Notes: generated by a model from the sequence alone, not told the origin. A stretch of 64,000 nucleotides of DNA from Candidatus Babeliales bacterium (GCA_963722075.1 CAVRJM010000001.1:768001-832000); one strand, 5' to 3'; counted from the first letter of the stretch, positions 1,024 through 9,177 are shown. Numbers and translations are program-made.

Positions 1024-1863
1024 ATGCAATTATTATTTTCCTCATTTTATCACTATTTTATTTTTTTTGGCTGGCGTGATTGCCTAGAAATTATATTTTT
1101 TTCATCAATATTTTACTTTTTTTCACGGTGGTTATTCTCCGATACACAAAAAAACTTATTATTCTCTTTTTACAACTATTGGCTTATTGCATTTGCATCC
1201 TATTTTTTACAACTCACCAGTATTACTTTCTTTCTTTTTGCTTTTGCGCCAGTAATTTGCGTAATATTTATAGTAATACATCAAAAAACATTACAGAAAA
1301 ATTTTATCAGCTATACCAACAAAACTTCTATTGCAAAAGATACAGATCATTGGCTTGATACCTTGGTACGTTTATGTTTACAAACTGCTCATAAAGATAA
1401 ACAACTTTTTTTTATTATCGAGCGTTACTCTTCTTTGCAAGATTTTTTAAACATACCATTCAAGATACATACAGATTTCAATAATGCATTACTTTCCATG
1501 CTTATAGATGCCCCTTCATTTGAGCAAAGTAAATTTATTTTAATGAATCACGAAGGATATTTATTAGGTATAAATGTAAGCAGTAAAATAACTATTGATA
1601 AAGAATGGATCGACACAACATTACTTAATAGCCAAACGTACAAAGATCATAGCTACTTATTAACGCATCAAACTGACGCACTCATTGTAGGTGTTACTCC
1701 TCAACTAAAACCATTTACGGTAATTTTCGATGGTACGTTTTATGAGCAGTTAACAACAGAAGCTGCAATGCGCTTACTTAAAAGATTCATACTTACTCAA
1801 AATCAAAAGGATTTTAAAAATGGTTACCTTAAAAAAACTAGTCACCACCAGCTCAGTCGTTAA
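1024..1863 (+). CDS. CdaA/DacA-like membrane protein with a degenerate diadenylate cyclase (DisA_N) domain
   Basis: Three N-terminal TM segments; IIERxxxLQDF and TDALIVGV resemble CdaA; first gene of a cdaA-cdaR-glmM arrangement; DGA and RHR motifs absent. Confidence 0.7.
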   Translation: MQLLFSSFYHYFIFFGWRDCLEIIFFSSIFYFFSRWLFSDTQKNLLFSFYNYWLIAFASYFLQLTSITFFLFAFAPVICVIFIVIHQKTLQKNFISYTNKTSIAKDTDHWLDTLVRLCLQTAHKDKQLFFIIERYSSLQDFLNIPFKIHTDFNNALLSMLIDAPSFEQSKFILMNHEGYLLGINVSSKITIDKEWIDTTLLNSQTYKDHSYLLTHQTDALIVGVTPQLKPFTVIFDGTFYEQLTTEAAMRLLKRFILTQNQKDFKNGYLKKTSHHQLSR

Positions 1864-2203
1864 AATAACTTCATGTATCATTGGATTTTGTTTTTGGTTT
1901 ATTTTAAGTGACTTTCGTGCCATAGAAATAACATATACCGTTCCAATTTCTTTTTACAATGACGAGCACTATAGTATTGAAGCACCAGAAACTATTACCG
2001 TTCAATTAAAGGGACATAAAACAGATTTTTATGCAGCAGACCTCACATCATTAACAGCGATAGTCGATCTTAAACAATTACATGAAGGAACAAATCATAT
2101 TATTTTAACCGAAGAAAATTTATTTTTACCTCCTGAAATTAAATTGGTACACTATACTCCATTAAATATAGTAGTAATGGTAAAAAATAAAAATCTGGTA
2201 TAA
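1820..2203 (+). CDS. CdaR/YbbR-like protein (single YbbR domain)
   Basis: N-terminal TM (KITSCIIGFCFWF), PETITVQLKG, AIVDLxxLxEG and LPPEIKLV pattern; lies between the cdaA-like gene and glmM. Confidence 0.75.
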   Translation: MVTLKKLVTTSSVVKITSCIIGFCFWFILSDFRAIEITYTVPISFYNDEHYSIEAPETITVQLKGHKTDFYAADLTSLTAIVDLKQLHEGTNHIILTEENLFLPPEIKLVHYTPLNIVVMVKNKNLV

Positions 2204-2207
2204 GTCA

Positions 2208-3527
2208 ATGATTGATAATATTTTTGGTACCGATGGTATCCGGGCAACAATGGGCACTGCTACGCTTACCCCCCTCCTGCTCCAGCAACTGGGTAAAGCA
2301 ATTGCTCAATGGTCAATTAATAAATATAATAAAAATCCTAAAATCCTTTTAGGGCATGATACGCGCATTTCATGTGATCTGGTTAAATCGGCACTGAAAT
2401 CAGGGTTATTATTATATCCGATCCAAATATTTGATGGCCATATCTTAACATCCCCTGCAGTGTGTCAACTTATTGCTTTTCAAGAACATTTTGATTGTGG
2501 CATTATTATTTCGGCATCCCATAATCCGTATCATGATAATGGTATTAAGATTATTGATAAAACAGGTAAATTATCTTTAGATGATGAATTAATGATCTCT
2601 GCACTTTTTCAAGAACAAAATACTCATCATAATTACCTGCATTTAGGATCTGAAATCTTCTGGTCTCAAGCTGAACAGTCTTATATAAATACACTCAGTA
2701 GTTTTTTTACTAAGAATTTCTTAATTGGTAAAAAAATTATTTTAGATTGCGCACATGGCGCATCTTTTCGATTAGCCCCACAAATTTTTAATCAATTTGG
2801 CGCAACAACTATTATTTTGCATAATCAACCCGATGGCTGTAATATAAATCATAATTGTGGTGCTTTACATCCACTTTCACTACAAAAAGCCGTTATTGAA
2901 CATCAAGCTGACGCGGGTTTTGCCTTTGATGGGGACGCTGACCGTGTAATTGTCGTCAATAAAAATGGTCAGATTAAAGATGGCGATGATATTTTAGCCC
3001 TCTTACTAAATCACCCCCACTATAAACATACCACACAGGTAGTTGGAACCATTATGAGCAATCAAGGATTTGAGTTTTTCCTCAACAACCAAAGTAAAAC
3101 GTTAATTAGAACAGCAGTAGGCGATAAATATGTCTGTGCTAGTTTAGTAGAAAAAGGCCTTATTTTAGGCGGTGAACCATCAGGGCATATAATAGTCCGC
3201 GATTATCTTAATACCGGTGATGGTATCTTTATAGCATTACGTGTGCTAGAATCTCTTATTATTAATGATAATTGGAAAATGGAAACATTCGAAAAATTCC
3301 CTCAAGTGCTTCTTAATGTTCCCGTTTTACAAAGAAAGGATCTAGCTTCAAATCCATACGAACAAATTATTACTCGCTGGCGTAATGAATTACAGAGTGG
3401 CCGTATAATTATACGGTACTCAGGAACGGAAAATCTTTTACGAATTATGATCGAAGATAATGATTACCATCATGCTCATGCTATTGGAGATCGATTAGTC
3501 CAACAATTATTGGAAGTTTTAAATTAA
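2208..3527 (+). CDS. glmM: Phosphoglucosamine mutase
   Basis: FGTDGIR, ISASHNP, FDGDADR, GGEPSGH and RYSGTE motifs. Confidence 0.95.
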   Translation: MIDNIFGTDGIRATMGTATLTPLLLQQLGKAIAQWSINKYNKNPKILLGHDTRISCDLVKSALKSGLLLYPIQIFDGHILTSPAVCQLIAFQEHFDCGIIISASHNPYHDNGIKIIDKTGKLSLDDELMISALFQEQNTHHNYLHLGSEIFWSQAEQSYINTLSSFFTKNFLIGKKIILDCAHGASFRLAPQIFNQFGATTIILHNQPDGCNINHNCGALHPLSLQKAVIEHQADAGFAFDGDADRVIVVNKNGQIKDGDDILALLLNHPHYKHTTQVVGTIMSNQGFEFFLNNQSKTLIRTAVGDKYVCASLVEKGLILGGEPSGHIIVRDYLNTGDGIFIALRVLESLIINDNWKMETFEKFPQVLLNVPVLQRKDLASNPYEQIITRWRNELQSGRIIIRYSGTENLLRIMIEDNDYHHAHAIGDRLVQQLLEVLN

Positions 3528-3531
3528 CGTT

Positions 3532-4158
3532 ATGTTTAAAGAAAAAATTATTATTTTGTTAAATCACATTCGCTCGATTTTTTTAAATGGTCTTTTTACC
3601 ATTTTACCCTTTACCTTAACTATCGCTCTTTTTAGATTAAGTTATCGCGTAATTAATAATTGGTTACAACCAATTTATGATTTAGAGCCTCCTTACTTAC
3701 AAACAATTCCAGGTTCGCATATTATTGTCGTTTTACTGGTAATTTTTCTGGTTGGGCTTCTCATTAAACTTTTCTTTCTAGAACCACTTATCCATCTTTT
3801 GGAATCAGTTTTTGCTAAAATACCCCTCTTAAAACAAGTATATGGTGGCACTAAACAATTGGTACAAGCATTTAATATTCAAGATGAATTGGCATTTAAA
3901 AAAATTGTTATGGTACCATTTCCAACACCCTCTAGTTTTTGCATTGGTTTTTTAACTAGTGAATTCCCTCCTCAAGTAGTCAATTTCAGCACTGAGCGTT
4001 TTTTCAATATCTTTATCCCCACCACCCCTAATCCCACCAGCGGTTTTTTAATTCAGGTTGCAGAAAAAGATATTATAGTTATTAATTTAACACGCCAAGA
4101 AGCGATGTCATTAATTATTTCGGGCGGCATTATTCAACCTGAGCGATTTAAAAAATAG
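3532..4158 (+). CDS. DUF502 family membrane protein
   Basis: FIPTTPNPTSGF and IISGG signature with TM segments. Confidence 0.85.
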   Translation: MFKEKIIILLNHIRSIFLNGLFTILPFTLTIALFRLSYRVINNWLQPIYDLEPPYLQTIPGSHIIVVLLVIFLVGLLIKLFFLEPLIHLLESVFAKIPLLKQVYGGTKQLVQAFNIQDELAFKKIVMVPFPTPSSFCIGFLTSEFPPQVVNFSTERFFNIFIPTTPNPTSGFLIQVAEKDIIVINLTRQEAMSLIISGGIIQPERFKK

Positions 4159-4173
4159 ATCGATTGTTAGTTA

Positions 4174-4530
4174 TTATTTAGGATGACCCTTTGTACTTAT
4201 GCCCCATTGTTGATTTTTTTCATTTTGCCAAATCCATAATTCTGCGTCTCTTTTAGGAACAAAACCTCCACTAATAGGTATATTGCCAAAATTTTCATTT
4301 TTAATGAAAATCGATGCACTACCAAAGTCAGAATTTAGAGGGAAATTATGAGAACTTTCTCCCACCGGTACATATATACCCGTCACAAAAACCCCACTAT
4401 GTAAACTTAATGTTACATCTTTTTTACTTAAATTATGTATAGTTACTTGTTTCTCTGCTGTATATAGTGCCGTGTATATTACTGAGCAGCTCAAACAAAG
4501 TATAAATACCATATTTTTTTTATTTATCAT
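4174..4530 (-). CDS. Hypothetical exported protein
   Basis: 118-aa ORF with signal peptide and AAAGG RBS. Confidence 0.6.
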   Translation of the reverse strand: MINKKNMVFILCLSCSVIYTALYTAEKQVTIHNLSKKDVTLSLHSGVFVTGIYVPVGESSHNFPLNSDFGSASIFIKNENFGNIPISGGFVPKRDAELWIWQNEKNQQWGISTKGHPK

Positions 4531-4564
4531 ATCTACCTTTCTTTTTTTTGTTTTTTACAAATGA

Positions 4565-4900
4565 CTATAATAACGGCTTGGTATCTTTGGTAGTACCTAT
4601 CGGCTTATCTTCAGAAGTGCCGCGATGGTAATTATAAGAACCATATCTTTTTCTGGTAGCTCGCTGTAATTGCCATAATCTTATTCTTCTATTACGTTCT
4701 TGCGCTATTGCCATATCAGTAGCAGCTGCACGCGATAAGTCTATTTTTTTCTTCTTTTTTAATTCAGGTGCCACTTCTGGAACATATAACATTCTTCCAC
4801 TTAACCCGCTATATAAATTGGGCCTTTTACTTTCCATAATAGGATATAATTTGAGCGGTATTAGACCTACAAAAATGTAATAATATAATCGATTTTTCAT
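4565..4900 (-). CDS. Hypothetical exported basic protein (signal + xME)
   Basis: Signal-like N-terminus ending PIME; KKKKK stretch; GAGGGG RBS. Confidence 0.6.
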   Translation of the reverse strand: MKNRLYYYIFVGLIPLKLYPIMESKRPNLYSGLSGRMLYVPEVAPELKKKKKIDLSRAAATDMAIAQERNRRIRLWQLQRATRKRYGSYNYHRGTSEDKPIGTTKDTKPLL

Positions 4901-5095
4901 ACAATTAATTCCCCTCTTCTAGTTATTAATATACTGCTATTTTCAACAATAAAACAATAAATAGCCGTTTCTGAGTGAATACGTGGCCCCATAAATTGAT
5001 GGTTTTTAATTTTAAAAATTATTGCTATTAGAATAATATATGGTGTAATATAAGAAGTAGAATAGGAGCAAAATAGTAAAAAAGGAGAATAACGT

Positions 5096-5248
5096 ATGGC
5101 TAAAGACTTAAATCCACCAAAAAAAGGTAATCACCACCCAAAACCTGATAACTATACAGCTCCTCATGTTGGGCAACGTAAAGAAGGCTCAAGCAAAACT
5201 GATGAACGTGAAACTCAAAAACAAAAAGTTAATAAAGATGTTTGTTAA
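5096..5248 (+). CDS. Small basic hydrophilic protein, 50 aa (MAKDLNPPKKGNHHPK...NKDVC); not in ORF track
   Basis: Translated by hand; AAGGAG RBS upstream of ATG 5096; TAA ends at 5248. Confidence 0.7.
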   Translation: MAKDLNPPKKGNHHPKPDNYTAPHVGQRKEGSSKTDERETQKQKVNKDVC

Positions 5249-5316
5249 TTAGTTAAAAAATAATGTAGTGTTTGTAATTATTTTTTTTATTTATTTATTT
5301 TTAAAAGGAGTCAATC

Positions 5317-5517
5317 ATGGCTAAACATGAAAAAAAAGAAGCAGGACATCAAGGTAAAGAAGCAACGCATCACGGTGATACTGCAAAACATGGTCAAGCT
5401 AAACATACCGGTTCACACCAAACACCTCATGCAGGATCTGCAAAACATGGCCACACGAATTCAAAATGGGAAAATACTTCAAAAACTGGTAAGTTAGGTA
5501 AAGAAGAAAAGAAGTAA
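5317..5517 (+). CDS. Small His/Lys-rich protein, 66 aa
   Basis: AAGGAG RBS; repeated AKHG motif. Confidence 0.75.
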   Translation: MAKHEKKEAGHQGKEATHHGDTAKHGQAKHTGSHQTPHAGSAKHGHTNSKWENTSKTGKLGKEEKK

Positions 5518-5596
5518 GAAGAAGCTGCTGCTGGGCAGAAAATTCTAACTTTTACTCATATCTTGAGTATATTATATTTATAATTAGGAGGTTATC

Positions 5597-5728
5597 ATGG
5601 CATACCATAAAGCACATAAATCACATCACAAAAAGGCAAGTTCAACGCATCATCATAAAAAATTCAACTCAAAAGCTCATCCACGAAATAAGCTTGGCCA
5701 ATTTGTGAAGAAAAGCAAATCACGATAA
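5597..5728 (+). CDS. Small His/Lys-rich protein, 43 aa (MAYHKAHKSHHKK...HPRNKLGQFVKKSKSR); not in ORF track
   Basis: AGGAGG RBS; translated by hand; no acidic residues. Confidence 0.75.
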   Translation: MAYHKAHKSHHKKASSTHHHKKFNSKAHPRNKLGQFVKKSKSR

Positions 5729-5746
5729 ATAATCACGTCATTTTAT

Positions 5747-5778
5747 AAGTAAGAACGGATAACAATCCGTTCTTACTT
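5747..5778. terminator. Perfect 14-bp hairpin (terminator or mRNA-stabilising stem)
   Basis: AAGTAAGAACGGAT-AACA-ATCCGTTCTTACTT. Confidence 0.6.
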
Positions 5779-5797
5779 TACTTTTAAGGAGGTTACA

Positions 5798-5974
5798 ATG
5801 GCACATAAAAATGGTAATAAAAATCTTATAGAAAAATCGTGGGAAACAATTAGTTCATGGTTTTCTAAACCTACCCGTAAAGAAGCCCATAAAAATCATC
5901 ATAAAACCTATGAGGATATTCAAAAACATATAAGAAATGAGCAAAAAACACCTAAAAACCATACGAAATTGTGA
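5798..5974 (+). CDS. Small His/Lys-rich protein, 58 aa (MAHKNGNKNLIEKSW...KNHTKL); not in ORF track
   Basis: TAAGGAGG RBS; translated by hand. Confidence 0.75.
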   Translation: MAHKNGNKNLIEKSWETISSWFSKPTRKEAHKNHHKTYEDIQKHIRNEQKTPKNHTKL

Positions 5975-5982
5975 GAGAAAAC

Positions 5983-6156
5983 ATGGTATATAGATATAAA
6001 ATAAGGGCAGAAGAGTCTAAAAAGAATAAAAAAAAAGTAAAAAAGGCCGATCAAAGTAAAGCTACTGATGAAAATAACCGCTATGGACAATCAGTCCCTA
6101 TATTAGAAGAAGAACGTGTAAATCCCCATATTATTGATGAACATGGGGAATATTAA
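5983..6156 (+). CDS. Small protein with basic N-terminal half and acidic C-terminal half
   Basis: ORF 5971..6156; ATG at 5983 more likely than the GTG start. Confidence 0.6.
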   Translation: MVYRYKIRAEESKKNKKKVKKADQSKATDENNRYGQSVPILEEERVNPHIIDEHGEY

Positions 6157-6158
6157 AA

Positions 6159-7154
6159 TTATTTCGTTTCTTCAAATACCTTTTTGATTGAAGCTAAGCT
6201 TCCCATTAATGAACTTGCTTCATAAGGGATCAACATCAATTTACCTTCTTTATCTTTAGTAATTTCAGGCAACGTTTTTATATATTGCATAGCAATTAAA
6301 TAGGGCAAAGGATCACCATTAGGTATTGCATGCTGAATCATAGTAATCGCTTGTGCCTCTGCTTGTGTAATTTTCAATCGCGCTTCTGCTTGTCCTTCAG
6401 CCTCAATAATATTCCCTTGAGCAGTTCCTTGCGCTTTCAAAATATCAGCTTCTCTAACCCCTTCTGCTTCTAAAATAGCAGCTCTTTTTTTACCTTCAGA
6501 TTCTAAGATAACTGCACGACGATCCCGTTCTGCTCTCATTTGCTTTTCCATAGCGATACGAATATCATGCGGTGGATTAACTTCTTGCAGTTCAACGCGG
6601 TTAACTTTTACACCCCACTTATCCGTCGCTTCATCTAAAATAATGCGCAATTTATTATTAATGGCATCTCTAGAAACAAGCGTTTCATCTAAATCCATAG
6701 CGCCAATTACGTTTCGTAAGGTGGTTTGCGTCAATTTTTCGATTGCTTCTGAAAGATTGGCAACCTCATATACCGCTGCCTTGGGATCAGTTATTTGATA
6801 ATATAATAAGGCGTTAATTTCCATCATTACGTTATCTCGAGTAATTACATTTTGCTTAGGAAAATCATAGACCGATTCACGCAAATCAAGGCGATTTGCT
6901 ATTTTAGTAAAACGATGATATCGCTTACCTTCTCCTTCTATCACTAAATATGACCATTGTACCGAGCGTGGTTTTTCAACAAACGGCACAATTACATGTA
7001 ATCCTGCATGCAATGTTTTACTATAACGACCAAATCGCTCAATAACCATAGCTTCAGCTTGTTGAATTAAGTAAACAGTCTTTAGCAAAAAAATAATACT
7101 AAAAATAATTAATGTACTTAAAAAAATTAATCCAATGGGAATAAAATATAACAT
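6159..7154 (-). CDS. SPFH/band 7 (stomatin-like, QmcA type) protein
   Basis: ERFGRY, RNVIGAMDLDETL, KWGVKVNRVE, MEKQMRAERDRRA. Confidence 0.92.
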   Translation of the reverse strand: MLYFIPIGLIFLSTLIIFSIIFLLKTVYLIQQAEAMVIERFGRYSKTLHAGLHVIVPFVEKPRSVQWSYLVIEGEGKRYHRFTKIANRLDLRESVYDFPKQNVITRDNVMMEINALLYYQITDPKAAVYEVANLSEAIEKLTQTTLRNVIGAMDLDETLVSRDAINNKLRIILDEATDKWGVKVNRVELQEVNPPHDIRIAMEKQMRAERDRRAVILESEGKKRAAILEAEGVREADILKAQGTAQGNIIEAEGQAEARLKITQAEAQAITMIQHAIPNGDPLPYLIAMQYIKTLPEITKDKEGKLMLIPYEASSLMGSLASIKKVFEETK

Positions 7155-7163
7155 GATACAACC

Positions 7164-7610
7164 TTAATTAGAAATTTGAACTCTTTTTACCATACAATGA
7201 CAACCGCTAATGGTAATAACTTCAACCACCGAACCTATCGGACAATGTTCTGCTGATTGGGCTAACCAAATCTGATTATCAACCACTATGTATCCCTTTT
7301 GTAAAGGGGTAATTTCATGGGTTACCACCCCATGGGCCCCTTGAAGGGCGAATGTATTAGTTTTTAAGCTTTTAGGAATAGTTTTTTTCTCTATTTTTTG
7401 CAACCATAAGGTTAAGGCAATGAAAATAACCAAAAAACTTCCAAAAAAAATATATATTTGTTCTTGAAACGAAAAACCAAATAGGCTACTAACAACTCCT
7501 GCCAAAGAAGCTAAGGAAATTGAAAGGAAAAGGAAAAGCCCCGGGTTAATCACTTCTAGTATTAAAAATATAAGTCCAATGATAAGCCAATAATATAATA
7601 AATTTGTCAT
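7164..7610 (-). CDS. NfeD-like (YbbJ) membrane protein
   Basis: TM helices plus C-terminal OB-like GYIVVDNQIWLA; directly upstream of the SPFH gene. Confidence 0.85.
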   Translation of the reverse strand: MTNLLYYWLIIGLIFLILEVINPGLFLFLSISLASLAGVVSSLFGFSFQEQIYIFFGSFLVIFIALTLWLQKIEKKTIPKSLKTNTFALQGAHGVVTHEITPLQKGYIVVDNQIWLAQSAEHCPIGSVVEVITISGCHCMVKRVQISN

Positions 7611-7876
7611 AATATCGTTATTTGTTATTTTTTATATTTAGTATATCAACAATTGGTAATTTTTCAATCCAGATGAAATAAAATACAAATATAACAATTT
7701 GTAAAAATAATTTATTTAATAATTTTCTAAGTATTGCTTTTTATGTAATTAATTGCTTATCATAATAATGTAACAACATGAATTCGATCTAAAAAAACTT
7801 AAATTAAATGTTTATGGAATATTAAGCATATGCCTAAAAATCCAGTTATAAAAATATAAAGACTTTTATTTATTCA

Positions 7877-7951
7877 CTGGATCCCCACGCTAACGCTCGG
7901 GATGACAAGGTGAAACAACAAATTGTCATTGCGAGCTTGCGTGGCAATCCA
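7877..7951. repeat. REP/RPE-like palindromic element, copy A
   Basis: CTGGATCCCCACG..TCGGGATGAC facing GTCATTGCGAG..CGTGGCAATCCA; GC-rich island in AT-rich intergenic DNA. Confidence 0.75.
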
Positions 7952-7973
7952 TTTATAAAATTAAAGGGACTGT

Positions 7974-8192
7974 ATGAAAAAAATTATTTTTACTTACCTC
8001 TGCTCACAATCATTAATAATTAATGCAGCAATCGATTTTACTCAAGATCGTCCACTTACTACTGATATAAACCCGGTTCTCAACCAATTATATGTTGAGC
8101 CTGAAAATCCTACCCGCCGTTGTGGCTGCAACCACCGAAAAAATAGATGGGCACGCTGTAATAAGCGTTCATTAAAGGTTAAAAATAAATAA
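7974..8192 (+). CDS. Small exported protein with a basic Cys-containing tail
   Basis: MKKII signal peptide; AAGGGA RBS. Confidence 0.55.
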   Translation: MKKIIFTYLCSQSLIINAAIDFTQDRPLTTDINPVLNQLYVEPENPTRRCGCNHRKNRWARCNKRSLKVKNK

Positions 8193-8271
8193 TTTTTCTA
8201 ATGATTGCATAACTAATCGTATTCTTTTACAGTTAAAATAAATAATTTTATTTTATATCTGTTATTATGCG

Positions 8272-9177
8272 ATGAATAATACAAAATATATATTGAGCCT
8301 ATTTTTGTTAATGGTGATAACTGGCTGCAAAAAAATAGCAGATCCTTCTCATTTAAATTATGCTTCGGTTTCTTGTACAAAGCCATCTAATATCTCTAGC
8401 GTTAGCCAACAACCTAAAGCTATAACCATATGGATTCATGGGACCCGCGTTTTTTTTTCAAAATTCATATTGCCCAATTTTTTCTATACTCGCATTGGTC
8501 TCCATAATGCCCTAGAATTTGATAAGAAATATCATATCCGTGAAATTGCAGATATTTTATGCCAGTATCAGCCTTCCAGATATGATATCCGTGATTTTTA
8601 CTTTTATGGATGGTCCGGAAAGTTAAGTTTTAAAGCTCGTTATAAAGCTGCTCACAAATTATTTAAATTATTGATTAATATAATCAACGAGTATGAGCAA
8701 AAATATGGACATAGGCCAAAAATACGTATAATAACCCATAGCCATGGCGGCAATGTAGCCCTTAATTTAGCTCATTTTAATATAGATTTAGCACTTATTA
8801 TTGATGAATTAATATTACTTGCCTGTCCGGTACAAAATAGAACTTGTCATTTAAGCAAACATGAGATGTTTAAAAAAATTTATTCATTATACTCTCGTTT
8901 TGATTCATTCCAGATTATTGATCCTCAACGGGTTTATTATTGGCTCAAAAAGGATACTTTTGGTTCTTCATATGAAAAACCTGATTCCTTTTTTTCAAGA
9001 CGCCGTTTTGATCCGCATAGTACCATTAAACAAGTTCCTTTAAAATTTAATAATCGCGGTATCATGCATATTGAATTTATTACTAACAAATTTGTAACTG
9101 CTTTGCCAGCGATTTTGGATGAAATAGACTCATGGGATGAAACGACCAAAGATTTTATTTGCATAAAATCTAAATAA
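8272..9177 (+). CDS. Alpha/beta-hydrolase-fold lipoprotein (lipase/esterase-like)
   Basis: Lipobox-like ITGC; IHGT, WSG and THSHGGN nucleophile elbow; late His (MHIEF). Confidence 0.7.
   Translation: MNNTKYILSLFLLMVITGCKKIADPSHLNYASVSCTKPSNISSVSQQPKAITIWIHGTRVFFSKFILPNFFYTRIGLHNALEFDKKYHIREIADILCQYQPSRYDIRDFYFYGWSGKLSFKARYKAAHKLFKLLINIINEYEQKYGHRPKIRIITHSHGGNVALNLAHFNIDLALIIDELILLACPVQNRTCHLSKHEMFKKIYSLYSRFDSFQIIDPQRVYYWLKKDTFGSSYEKPDSFFSRRRFDPHSTIKQVPLKFNNRGIMHIEFITNKFVTALPAILDEIDSWDETTKDFICIKSK

What the first reader, a model, noticed from the sequence alone, without database searches (positions are those of the whole stretch)
5096..6156. Tandem cluster of five tiny basic peptides, three missed by the ORF track
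Seen: five co-oriented ORFs of 50, 66, 43, 58 and 57 aa. The first four have strong SD sequences (AAGGAG/AGGAGG), start with MA and contain His/Lys-rich stretches. None has a signal peptide and all look disordered. A perfect hairpin splits the cluster. Inference: highly expressed nucleoid-condensing or stress-protective peptides for the extracellular infectious stage, analogous to chlamydial Hc1/Hc2 or spore SASPs. His richness could give pH- or metal-dependent binding.
Basis: partly seen in the sequence, partly recalled or inferred. Interest (0 to 1): 0.7.

Follow-up and report, generated by a model that had tools for sequence, protein, structure and literature searches.

The report
Tiny disordered stress-protein gene cluster
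A bacterium that likely lives as a parasite of protists carries a tight cluster of five tiny genes for extremely water-loving proteins, four of them kept in relatives, which likely protect its dormant form by shielding proteins and binding metals, while its best candidate for a chlamydia-style DNA-packing protein lies elsewhere in the genome.

Summary
The five ORFs are real. Four have strong ribosome-binding sites (4 seen; null mean 0.004), and four of the five have relatives. The host is a Babeliales/Dependentiae-like bacterium. O2 (66 aa) holds the same position in all 4 family relatives. It keeps a Gly/His/Gln-rich hydrophilin composition but only a weak net charge (+0.03 to +0.10 per residue). 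O4 and O5 are syntenic in the sister genome, and O5 and O1 have metagenomic homologues with conserved motifs. Only O3 (43 aa, +0.31, no acidic residue) is a true polycation, and no relative was found for it. None of the five has Hc2 pentamers or Hc1/SASP matches. A real Hc2-like gene sits elsewhere, downstream of thrS, and is conserved in 10 of 30 relatives' loci. In a sister genus the slot beside O2 holds a Cys-rich, metallothionein-like peptide. Analogous basic-plus-hydrophilin pairs lie beside the stress gene DUF1328 in 5 other Babeliales. Best reading: an abundant stress/dormancy kit of disordered shield and metal-binding peptides, with O3 a possible accessory DNA binder. Expression and binding are untested.

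The parts
4958..4971 (+). Loosely palindromic upstream motif (core A-[ACT]-AGC-Y-R), 141 nt before O1; candidate operator or promoter element inherited from the family's O2 promoter region
   Evidence: The core lies 107-144 nt before the first peptide gene in 5 of 5 family genomes and in 14 of 449 control upstream regions in that band. Leave-one-out null fractions are 0.007-0.27. Found post hoc; function untested.
5082..5087 (+). Shine-Dalgarno AAGGAG of O1
   Evidence: the 16S 3' end carries the anti-SD
5096..5248 (+). O1, 50 aa, disordered, pI 9.5, conserved central motif and C-terminal Cys
   Evidence: Homologue P0002 is 66% identical over the full length, E 1.5e-11; not found in 250 other order genomes
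5305..5310 (+). Shine-Dalgarno AAGGAG of O2
   Evidence: also present in the G001-G004 orthologues
5317..5517 (+). O2, 66 aa, Gly/His/Lys-rich hydrophilin-type peptide (Gly 14%, His 15%, GRAVY -1.83); the conserved core gene of the cluster
   Evidence: Syntenic counterpart in 4 of 4 family relatives; the profile hits only those 5 genomes of 251; alignment to the G001 copy p 0.0003-0.0007 against shuffles; composition
5551..5578 (+). Sigma-70-like promoter match before O3
   Evidence: 9 of 12 matches; the number of such matches in the region is at chance level, so weak
5586..5591 (+). Shine-Dalgarno AGGAGG of O3
5597..5728 (+). O3, 43 aa, His/Lys polycation (pI 11.4, +0.31 per residue, no Asp/Glu, His 19%); the only member with DNA-condenser-like charge; no relative found
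   Evidence: no homologue; absent from the G001 locus
5747..5778 (.). Perfect 14-bp hairpin, T-rich tail on + strand and weaker T tail on - strand; likely bidirectional intrinsic terminator ending O1-O3 and possibly the convergent SPFH transcript
   Evidence: G001 has its strong hairpin after O5 instead
5786..5792 (+). Shine-Dalgarno AAGGAGG of O4, 8 nt after the hairpin
5798..5974 (+). O4, 58 aa, His/Lys-rich with a short Trp-containing predicted helix near the N-terminus
   Evidence: Syntenic 55-aa counterpart in G001, global alignment p 0.005, local p 0.023; helices predicted at low confidence
5983..6156 (+). O5, 57 aa (61 aa from GTG 5971), near-neutral; ends in the family-invariant N-x-H-x-x-x-EHGEY motif but has lost the family's N-terminal His motif and strong SD
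   Evidence: Family of 7 proteins; among 251 order genomes only G000 and G001
6159..7154 (-). Convergent SPFH/Band 7 gene (NfeD gene upstream at 7164-7610); synteny anchor, not part of the cluster
   Evidence: Pfam PF01145 E 1e-40, PF01957; present in 34 of 41 genomes searched, but small hydrophilic SD-bearing ORFs were found beside it in only 5 of the 30 loci returned, all in this family

Best explanation
The cluster is a family-specific set of five tiny, very hydrophilic, mostly disordered proteins with strong ribosome-binding sites that likely act together as a stress and dormancy kit, with O2 predicted to shield proteins and membranes as a hydrophilin and its histidines likely binding transition metals, and with O3 possibly coating nucleic acid beside a separate Hc2-like protein. 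Steps: (1) Shown: the genes exist, have strong SD sites, and four of five are conserved as proteins. (2) Shown: what selection keeps in O2 is extreme hydrophilicity, 8-14% Gly and length 65-72 aa, not net positive charge. (3) Inferred: one upstream promoter region drives O1-O2(-O3), and the hairpin lowers read-through to O4-O5. (4) Inferred: the products are abundant in the non-growing, host-free form. (5) Inferred from dehydrin, hydrophilin and Hpn biochemistry: they prevent aggregation, buffer Cu/Zn/Ni/Fe and limit radical damage, and His protonation near pH 6 roughly doubles the charge of O2 (+6 to +14) and could switch on membrane or nucleic-acid binding. (6) Inferred: O1 and O5 also use short conserved motifs to bind specific partners.
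For: SD enrichment and codon use: 4 observed against a null maximum of 1; CAI of O1, O2 and O4 is above the 95th percentile of long ORFs (weak, composition-dependent). O2 is syntenic in 4 of 4 family relatives, and all five copies have Gly above 6% and GRAVY -1.8 to -2.7 while net charge per residue is only +0.03 to +0.10. Identical residues often use different codons in G001 (O2 11 of 26, O4 6 of 15, O5 7 of 16). In genus g3 (2 of 2 genomes) the slot between O2 and SPFH holds a 34-37 aa peptide with 8-9 Cys in CxC/CC/CxxC motifs. In 5 of 60 DUF1328-bearing genomes of the order, a basic peptide plus a hydrophilin lie beside DUF1328; its Salmonella/E. coli member ytjA is listed among small ORFs tightly controlled by sigma-S (PMC5437024 passages). 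His-rich dehydrin segments bind metals, tune membrane binding by pH and bind DNA/RNA with Zn (PMC4215689 passages). A cultured member of the phylum has a long-lived free form (PMC6561590 passages). The ESM Atlas top hit for O2 is named 'putative stress-induced protein' (score 0.80, a lead only).
Against: There is no expression, stage or binding data. His content is not conserved in O2 (6% in G002, 25% in G001), and O1 and O5 are not His-rich. G000 itself lacks DUF1328 and the Cys-rich peptide. The DUF1328 link is patchy: both peptide classes occur in only 3 of 60 loci examined, plus two genomes found by a pattern chosen from the window's own starts. Cross-family alignments are not significant after 132 comparisons (best p 0.003), so those clusters are analogues only. 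Only O2 passes the Gly criterion in the window (O1 is at exactly 6%). The genome has one sigma-70-family factor and no sigma-54, so there is no stress sigma factor to explain stage control. Ferritin/Dps-family, HU and HPF-family genes already exist.
Confidence: 0.45

Rival explanations
1. The cluster is the nucleoid-condensing machinery of the infectious form, functionally equal to chlamydial Hc1/Hc2, spore SASPs or Coxiella ScvA.
For: All five have a basic pI. O3 is +0.31 per residue with no acidic residues. Analogous +0.31 to +0.43 peptides occur in the clusters of families f11 and f14. The phylum has a condensed nucleoid in free particles (PMC6561590 passages). [quoted passage not shown]
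Against: O1, O2, O4 and O5 carry 6-12 Asp/Glu, and O2 orthologues drop to +0.03 per residue. The five have 0 Hc2 pentamers and no 5-residue charge periodicity, against 8 pentamers and p<0.001 for the thrS-linked gene. That gene matches Pfam HC2 (E 3e-5, below cut-off) and recurs in 10 of 30 thrS loci, including all 4 family loci returned. No SASP or Hc1 match in 5 family genomes. O3 is missing from the sister genome's locus.
Confidence: 0.15
2. The locus is primarily a metal store or detoxification module (Hpn-like or metallothionein-like): His-rich peptides in one genus and a Cys-rich peptide in another fill the same job.
For: His 10-25% in O2, O3, O4 and G001 O2, with HxxH spacing in G001 O2. 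The O5 family has invariant His/Glu at the C-terminus. A Cys-rich neighbour is found in g3. Hpn/Hpn-2 are 60-66 aa His-rich nickel binders (PMC4671568 passages).
Against: His is as low as 6% in G002 O2. There are no long His runs (longest is 3, in O3). No metal transporter or metal regulator gene was seen in the flanks listed. The Cys-rich peptide has no Pfam metallothionein match.
Confidence: 0.18
3. These are unrelated microproteins that each bind a specific partner (ribosome, RNA polymerase, or the neighbouring SPFH/NfeD membrane complex) through short motifs, gathered behind one strong promoter.
For: O5 has an invariant C-terminal motif in 7 of 7 proteins. O1 has a conserved core. O4 has a conserved W-containing segment. 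O2 is fixed next to SPFH in the family.
Against: O2, the only family-wide member, conserves composition rather than a motif (3 invariant columns). The cluster is convergent to SPFH, not co-transcribed, and is missing from 25 of 30 SPFH loci. The A5 profile has no match in solved structures. An HPF-family gene is already present.
Confidence: 0.15
4. Part of the cluster (O3, perhaps the window's eroding O5) is young or decaying sequence with little function.
For: O3 has no relative in any search and an average CAI (0.684). O5 here has lost the strong SD and the N-terminal motif of its family.
Against: O3 has a perfect AGGAGG at canonical spacing, a promoter-like site before it and a terminator after it. 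Searches with low-complexity queries have little power: O2 alone missed its 4 known orthologues, and the O2 profile found 0 proteins in 1.84 billion, not even its own members.
Confidence: 0.07

Closest known systems
Bacterial hydrophilins (YciG/YmdF KGG-repeat proteins of the sigma-S regulon) and plant LEA/dehydrins, especially His-rich dehydrins
   Same: Small, Gly-rich, extremely hydrophilic, predicted disordered; His and Lys rich; composition conserved more than sequence (O2 family).
   Different: No KGG, dehydrin or LEA Pfam match. O2 has a Trp near the C-terminus in 4 of 5 copies, whereas most hydrophilins lack Trp (PMC3691520 passage). There is no sigma-S in this genome. Stress induction is untested.
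Chlamydial Hc2 (HctB) and Hc1 (HctA); Burkholderia/Bordetella H1-like proteins
   Same: O3 is a Lys-rich, acid-free polycation in an organism of a phylum with a condensed free form.
   Different: The five peptides are 43-66 aa against 165-237 aa for Hc2. They have no Ala-rich pentamers and no family match, and four contain many acidic residues. The real Hc2-like gene is at G000 C1:338837-339148.
Coxiella ScvA/Hq1 (small basic DNA-binding proteins enriched in the small cell variant)
   Same: Very small, basic, lineage-specific; a plausible functional analogue for O3 (PMC4766238 passages).
   Different: No sequence comparison was possible with the sequences held here; O3 is His-rich; stage expression is unknown.
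Helicobacter Hpn/Hpn-2 and metallothioneins
   Same: About 60-70 aa, His-rich (and Gln-rich in some O2 copies); a Cys-rich metallothionein-like peptide is adjacent in a sister genus.
   Different: His is 6-25% and dispersed among Lys, Gly and Glu rather than clustered in runs; no Cys pairs in O2-O5; no metal data.
Spore alpha/beta-type SASPs
   Same: Small size, strong SD, proposed dormancy role.
   Different: No PF00269 match in 5 family genomes, while the B. subtilis control is positive; composition is far more hydrophilic and His-rich.

Membership tests
Hc2/HctB | Consecutive pentamers of two basic plus three small (Ala/Val/Thr/Pro) residues giving evenly spaced charge (PMC2848022 passages) | tested here: not met
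   0 pentamers and no lag-5 charge periodicity in O1-O5 (p 0.22-0.94); the thrS-linked gene has 8 pentamers, p<0.001
Hc2/HctB | Pfam HC2 (PF07382) match | tested here: not met
   No hit for O1-O5 at E up to 1; the thrS-linked protein hits at E 2.8e-5, below the curated cut-off
Hc1/HctA | Conserved N-terminal dimerisation domain plus acid-free Lys-rich tail (Pfam PF07432) | tested here: not met
   0 of 5 family genomes match; only O3 is acid-free
Hc1/Hc2/ScvA (functional) | Binds and condenses DNA; expressed late in development | not testable with these tools
   No assay; no RNA holder was listed
alpha/beta SASP | PF00269 motifs | tested here: not met
Hydrophilins | High Gly and high hydrophilicity (definition in PMC5437024 passage; thresholds Gly >6% and index >1 are recalled) | tested here: met
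   Met by O2 and all 4 of its orthologues; not met by O1 (exactly 6%), O3, O4 or O5
Hydrophilins | Intrinsically disordered | tested here: inconclusive
   Charge-hydropathy predicts disorder for all five; low AlphaFold confidence for O4 and O5; O2 was not folded; no measurement
Hydrophilins | Induced by water deficit or stationary phase; protects enzymes in vitro | not testable with these tools
   No expression data or assay
Dehydrins | At least one K-segment (PMC4215689 abstract and passages) | tested here: not met
   No Pfam Dehydrin hit; O2 has no window with 4 or more hydrophobic residues in 11
YciG/KGG stress proteins | KGG repeat (Pfam) | tested here: not met
   No hit
Hpn/Hpn-2 | Very high His content clustered in stretches, with Cys pairs or a Gln-rich tail (PMC4671568 passages) | tested here: not met
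   His 3-19% in O1-O5, mostly dispersed, longest run 3; no Cys pairs
Hpn/Hpn-2 | Binds Ni(II) | not testable with these tools
   No assay
Metallothionein (neighbour peptide in G003/G004, not in the window) | Small, more than 20% Cys in CxC/CC/CxxC motifs (criterion recalled) | tested here: met
   9 of 34 and 8 of 37 Cys with these motifs; no Pfam or NCBIfam match; metal binding untested

The most novel reading that the evidence does not exclude
Babeliales build their long-lived free form with an undescribed modular kit of microproteins. A conserved Hc2-like protein next to thrS packs the chromosome. A fast-evolving cassette pairs a hydrophilin with swappable metal- or pH-sensing partners (His-rich polycations in one genus, a metallothionein-like peptide in another). 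Protonation or metal release on entry into the host's acidic vacuole would then switch them off and wake the cell.
Probability: 0.12. Interest if true: 0.75.

Novelty: new member of a known kind. Interest (0 to 1): 0.42.

Why it matters
How Babelota/Dependentiae condense their nucleoid and survive for years outside a host, with one sigma factor and a small genome, is not explained in the papers found. This work gives named, cheaply synthesised candidates: the O2 hydrophilin family, the O1 and O5 motif families, the O3 polycation and, separately, a conserved Hc2-like gene. Short peptides can be assayed without culturing the organism. Two of the five (O2, O3) are not in the 15-billion-protein collection as exact sequences, which suggests such genes get missed by annotation.

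Tried and rejected
Family libraries: no Pfam family at cut-off, NCBIfam or PHROGs match for O1-O5; no Rfam match in 4000-8400 (7). O4+O5 as one frameshifted or misassembled gene: rejected, because G001 has separate O4 and O5 counterparts and a contig spans the junction unchanged. Paralogous origin of the five from each other: only O3/O4 reach p 0.015 among many pairs; no second copy in the genome. DUF1328 as a general marker of such clusters: rejected, since both peptide classes occur in 3 of 60 loci. Homology of the f11/f14 clusters to this one: not shown. Single-sequence searches with low-complexity queries lack power: O2 missed its orthologues (23), the Hc2-like protein missed its syntenic orthologues (48 against 58), and the O2 profile returned 0 proteins from 1.84 billion (91). 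The negatives for O3 (11, 25, 80, 123) are therefore weak. Four hits at E 0.04-0.09 were treated as noise and not inspected. Viral collections gave nothing for O5 (93) or O1 (124); annotated phages gave nothing for O3; PDB sequences gave nothing for the O5 profile. No RNA holder was listed, which is no evidence either way. A partial match of run X4 to the O1 start lay on the opposite strand from its other match and was set aside. A sigma-28-type promoter was considered and dropped, because no second sigma-70-family factor was found. The metagenome scan with the SPFH gene gave no locus with a similar cluster among the 8 of 80 inspected. The genome scan with DUF502 found nothing. The DNA context of P0002 and P0007-P0011 could not be obtained. 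No complex prediction was run.

Full report
Setting. The window is G000:C1:768001-832000 of a 1.47 Mb, 99% complete, 35% GC genome. The best named matches of the neighbouring SPFH protein are Ca. Dependentiae (68%) and Ca. Babeliales (63%) records, so the organism is most likely a Babeliales/Dependentiae protist parasite; earlier scan notes on this genome say the same. The cluster lies between DUF502 plus two unknown minus-strand ORFs on the left and a convergent SPFH-NfeD pair on the right.

Observation. The five ORFs, the four SD sites, the MA starts and the hairpin are as described. Four ATG ORFs of 40 aa or more with a strong SD in 1.26 kb were never reached in 5000 simulated sequences (mean 0.0044, maximum 1), and only 64 of 859 long ORFs have such an SD. 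Of 32 small strong-SD ORFs outside long ORFs in the genome, O2, O3 and O4 are the three richest in His. His enrichment is significant for O2-O4 only. All five lack a hydrophobic stretch and are predicted disordered. AlphaFold gives no confident fold for O5 or O4, though O4 has predicted helices. The hairpin folds at about -20 kcal/mol on both strands and is one of 23 perfect stems of 14 bp or more on C1.

Conservation. Among 30 SPFH loci of relatives, small hydrophilic SD-bearing ORFs occur in 5, all in the window's family. O2 has a counterpart in the same place in G001-G004. A profile of these five finds only these five genomes among 251 (they built the profile). The same-genus genome G001 has O2, a 55-aa O4 counterpart without SD, a 59-aa O5 counterpart with a strong SD, and then a terminator. 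Alignment p-values against shuffles are 0.0007 (O2), 0.005 (O4) and 0.0003 (O5), global mode, and 40-44% of identical residues use different codons. O5 belongs to a family of 7 proteins with an N-terminal His motif and an invariant C-terminal N-x-H-x-x-x-EHGEY; the window's copy keeps only the latter. It was found in 2 of 251 order genomes, both of this genus. O1 has one full-length homologue at 66% identity and was not found in 250 other order genomes. O3 has no relative, but such searches have little power. So O2 is the old core, O4 and O5 are genus-level, and O1 and O3 are patchy additions. A shared upstream motif in 5 of 5 family genomes suggests O1 was inserted between the ancestral promoter region and O2 (inference).

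What is conserved in O2. The five copies keep length (65-72 aa), Gly (8-14%) and GRAVY (-1.8 to -2.7). Net charge at pH 7 is only +0.03 to +0.10 per residue, His ranges from 6 to 25% and Gln+Asn from 6 to 34%. This is the pattern of a hydrophilin, not of a DNA condenser. Hydrophilins are defined by high Gly and hydrophilicity and include sigma-S-controlled YciG (PMC5437024, passages). They protect enzymes on drying and freezing, and most lack Trp and Cys (PMC3691520, passages); the numerical thresholds I applied are recalled. His-rich dehydrin segments bind Cu, Zn, Ni, Co and Fe, tune membrane binding by pH, and bind DNA/RNA with Zn (PMC4215689, passages). The computed charge of O2 rises from +6 at pH 7 to +14 at pH 5.5.

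Test of the Hc1/Hc2/SASP idea. Hc2 is built of pentamers with two basic and three small residues (PMC2848022, passages). O1-O5 have none and show no 5-residue charge periodicity. No Hc1 or SASP match exists in 5 family genomes. The genome does have a 103-aa protein with 41% Lys+Arg, no acidic residue and 8 pentamers just downstream of thrS. It matches Pfam HC2 at E 2.8e-5 and a Burkholderia H1-like model at E 0.0013, both below cut-off. A protein of this kind lies in 10 of 30 thrS loci of the order (my count from the listing; Lys+Arg 38-53%), including G000, G001, G003 and G004. That gene is the better candidate for the condensed nucleoid reported in free Chromulinavorax cells (PMC6561590, passages). 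Within the cluster only O3 (+0.31 per residue, acid-free) has comparable charge. It may play a part like Coxiella's small basic ScvA/Hq1 (PMC4766238, passages), but it is absent from the sister genome's locus.

Context clues to function. First, in both g3 genomes the gene between O2 and SPFH is a 34-37 aa peptide with 8-9 Cys in CxC/CC/CxxC motifs. It was not found in G000-G002. It is metallothionein-like by composition and has no family match. Second, a pattern search built from the cluster's own SD and start codons matched 56 of 201 genomes. Of the 30 loci returned, one was the window itself and three (G014, G048, G064) were small basic His/Lys peptides next to a Gln/Asn/Gly-rich hydrophilin and DUF1328. 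DUF1328 is in 60 of 201 genomes but not G000. Both peptide classes lay beside it in 1 of 30 and 2 of 30 loci examined (G064, G061, G083), which with G014 and G048 gives 5 of 60 genomes. thrS and SPFH control loci had both classes in 0 of 30 and 1 of 30 (the window). ytjA (DUF1328) is in the table of small ORFs tightly controlled by sigma-S. These clusters are analogues; homology was not shown. Third, the genome has HU, ferritin/Dps-family, HPF-family and DUF6496 genes, one sigma-70-family factor and no sigma-54, so any stage control would need a DNA-binding regulator or a post-transcriptional route (inference).

Mechanism. Shown: five genes, strong translation signals on four, protein-level conservation of four, and hydrophilin composition of the core gene. 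Inferred: abundant synthesis late in infection or under stress, molecular-shield and metal-buffering action by O2 (with O3 and O4 adding His), pH-tunable binding, nucleic-acid coating by O3, and partner binding through the O1 and O5 motifs. Confidence is 0.45. Rivals: metal store (0.18; Hpn comparison from PMC4671568 passages), whole-cluster nucleoid condensation (0.15), specific regulatory microproteins (0.15), and partly non-functional ORFs (0.07).

Novelty. The individual families have no Pfam, NCBIfam, PHROGs or PDB match (PDB tested for O5 only). Literature searches listed no paper on small basic or hydrophilin proteins of this phylum. The library lacks most subscription journals, and I read passages only, no supplements. 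The kinds of protein involved (hydrophilins, small basic dormancy proteins, His/Cys metal binders) are well known, so I rate this a new member of a known kind, with interest 0.42: solid, testable and relevant to an open question about an obscure phylum, but not mechanistically surprising on present evidence.

Noticed in passing
G000 C1:338837-339148 (minus; L202 2838-3149), outside the window: Hc2/H1-like gene (103 aa, 41% Lys+Arg, pentamer repeats) just downstream of thrS; similar genes in 10 of 30 thrS loci across Babeliales (36-239 aa). Likely the real nucleoid-condensing protein of the order; no paper on it was listed in my searches.
   Followed up: partly
L038 7265-7369 (G003) and L037 5395-5508 minus (G004): 34-37 aa Cys-rich, metallothionein-like peptides directly after the O2 orthologue; no Pfam or NCBIfam match.
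   Followed up: partly
L253, L254, L309, L319, L330 (G048, G014, G061, G083, G064): Clusters of a very basic Lys/Arg peptide with a short central hydrophobic segment plus a Gln/Asn/Gly-rich hydrophilin beside DUF1328 (and a Bax-inhibitor-1 family gene in G014 and G048).
   Followed up: partly
window 4958-4971: Loosely palindromic AGC-centred motif 107-144 nt upstream of the first peptide gene in all five family genomes; candidate operator in a genome with a single sigma factor.
   Followed up: partly
window 5566-5582 region (between O2 and O3): Short inverted repeat TACTCA-N5-TGAGTA at about 5554-5570, overlapping the promoter-like site before O3; possible operator or weak hairpin (seen).
   Followed up: no
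window 5779-6158: O4 and O5 lie between the hairpin and the convergent SPFH stop with no terminator in between (O5 ends 2 nt from the SPFH stop), so SPFH mRNA may run antisense over O5 and O4. In G001 the hairpin lies after O5 instead.
   Followed up: no
window 4565-4900 (minus): 111-aa unknown ORF divergent from the cluster, with a syntenic 124-aa counterpart in G001 (L036 6180-6554) sharing a basic ERNRR-containing segment; no family match.
   Followed up: no
G000 C1:379351-379557 and C1:1212324-1212596: Two more small basic hydrophilic genes with strong SD: a DUF6496 protein (in 4 of 5 family genomes) and a 90-aa Lys-rich unknown.
   Followed up: partly
window 1024-3527: Two membrane-protein ORFs (the second with a weak YbbR match) followed by a phosphohexomutase gene; the order recalls cdaA-cdaR-glmM (recalled), but the first ORF had no diadenylate cyclase Pfam match.
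   Followed up: no
G000, whole genome: Only one sigma-70-family factor and no sigma-54 were found; the same in G001, G004 and G014, while G003 shows two adjacent partial matches.
   Followed up: no
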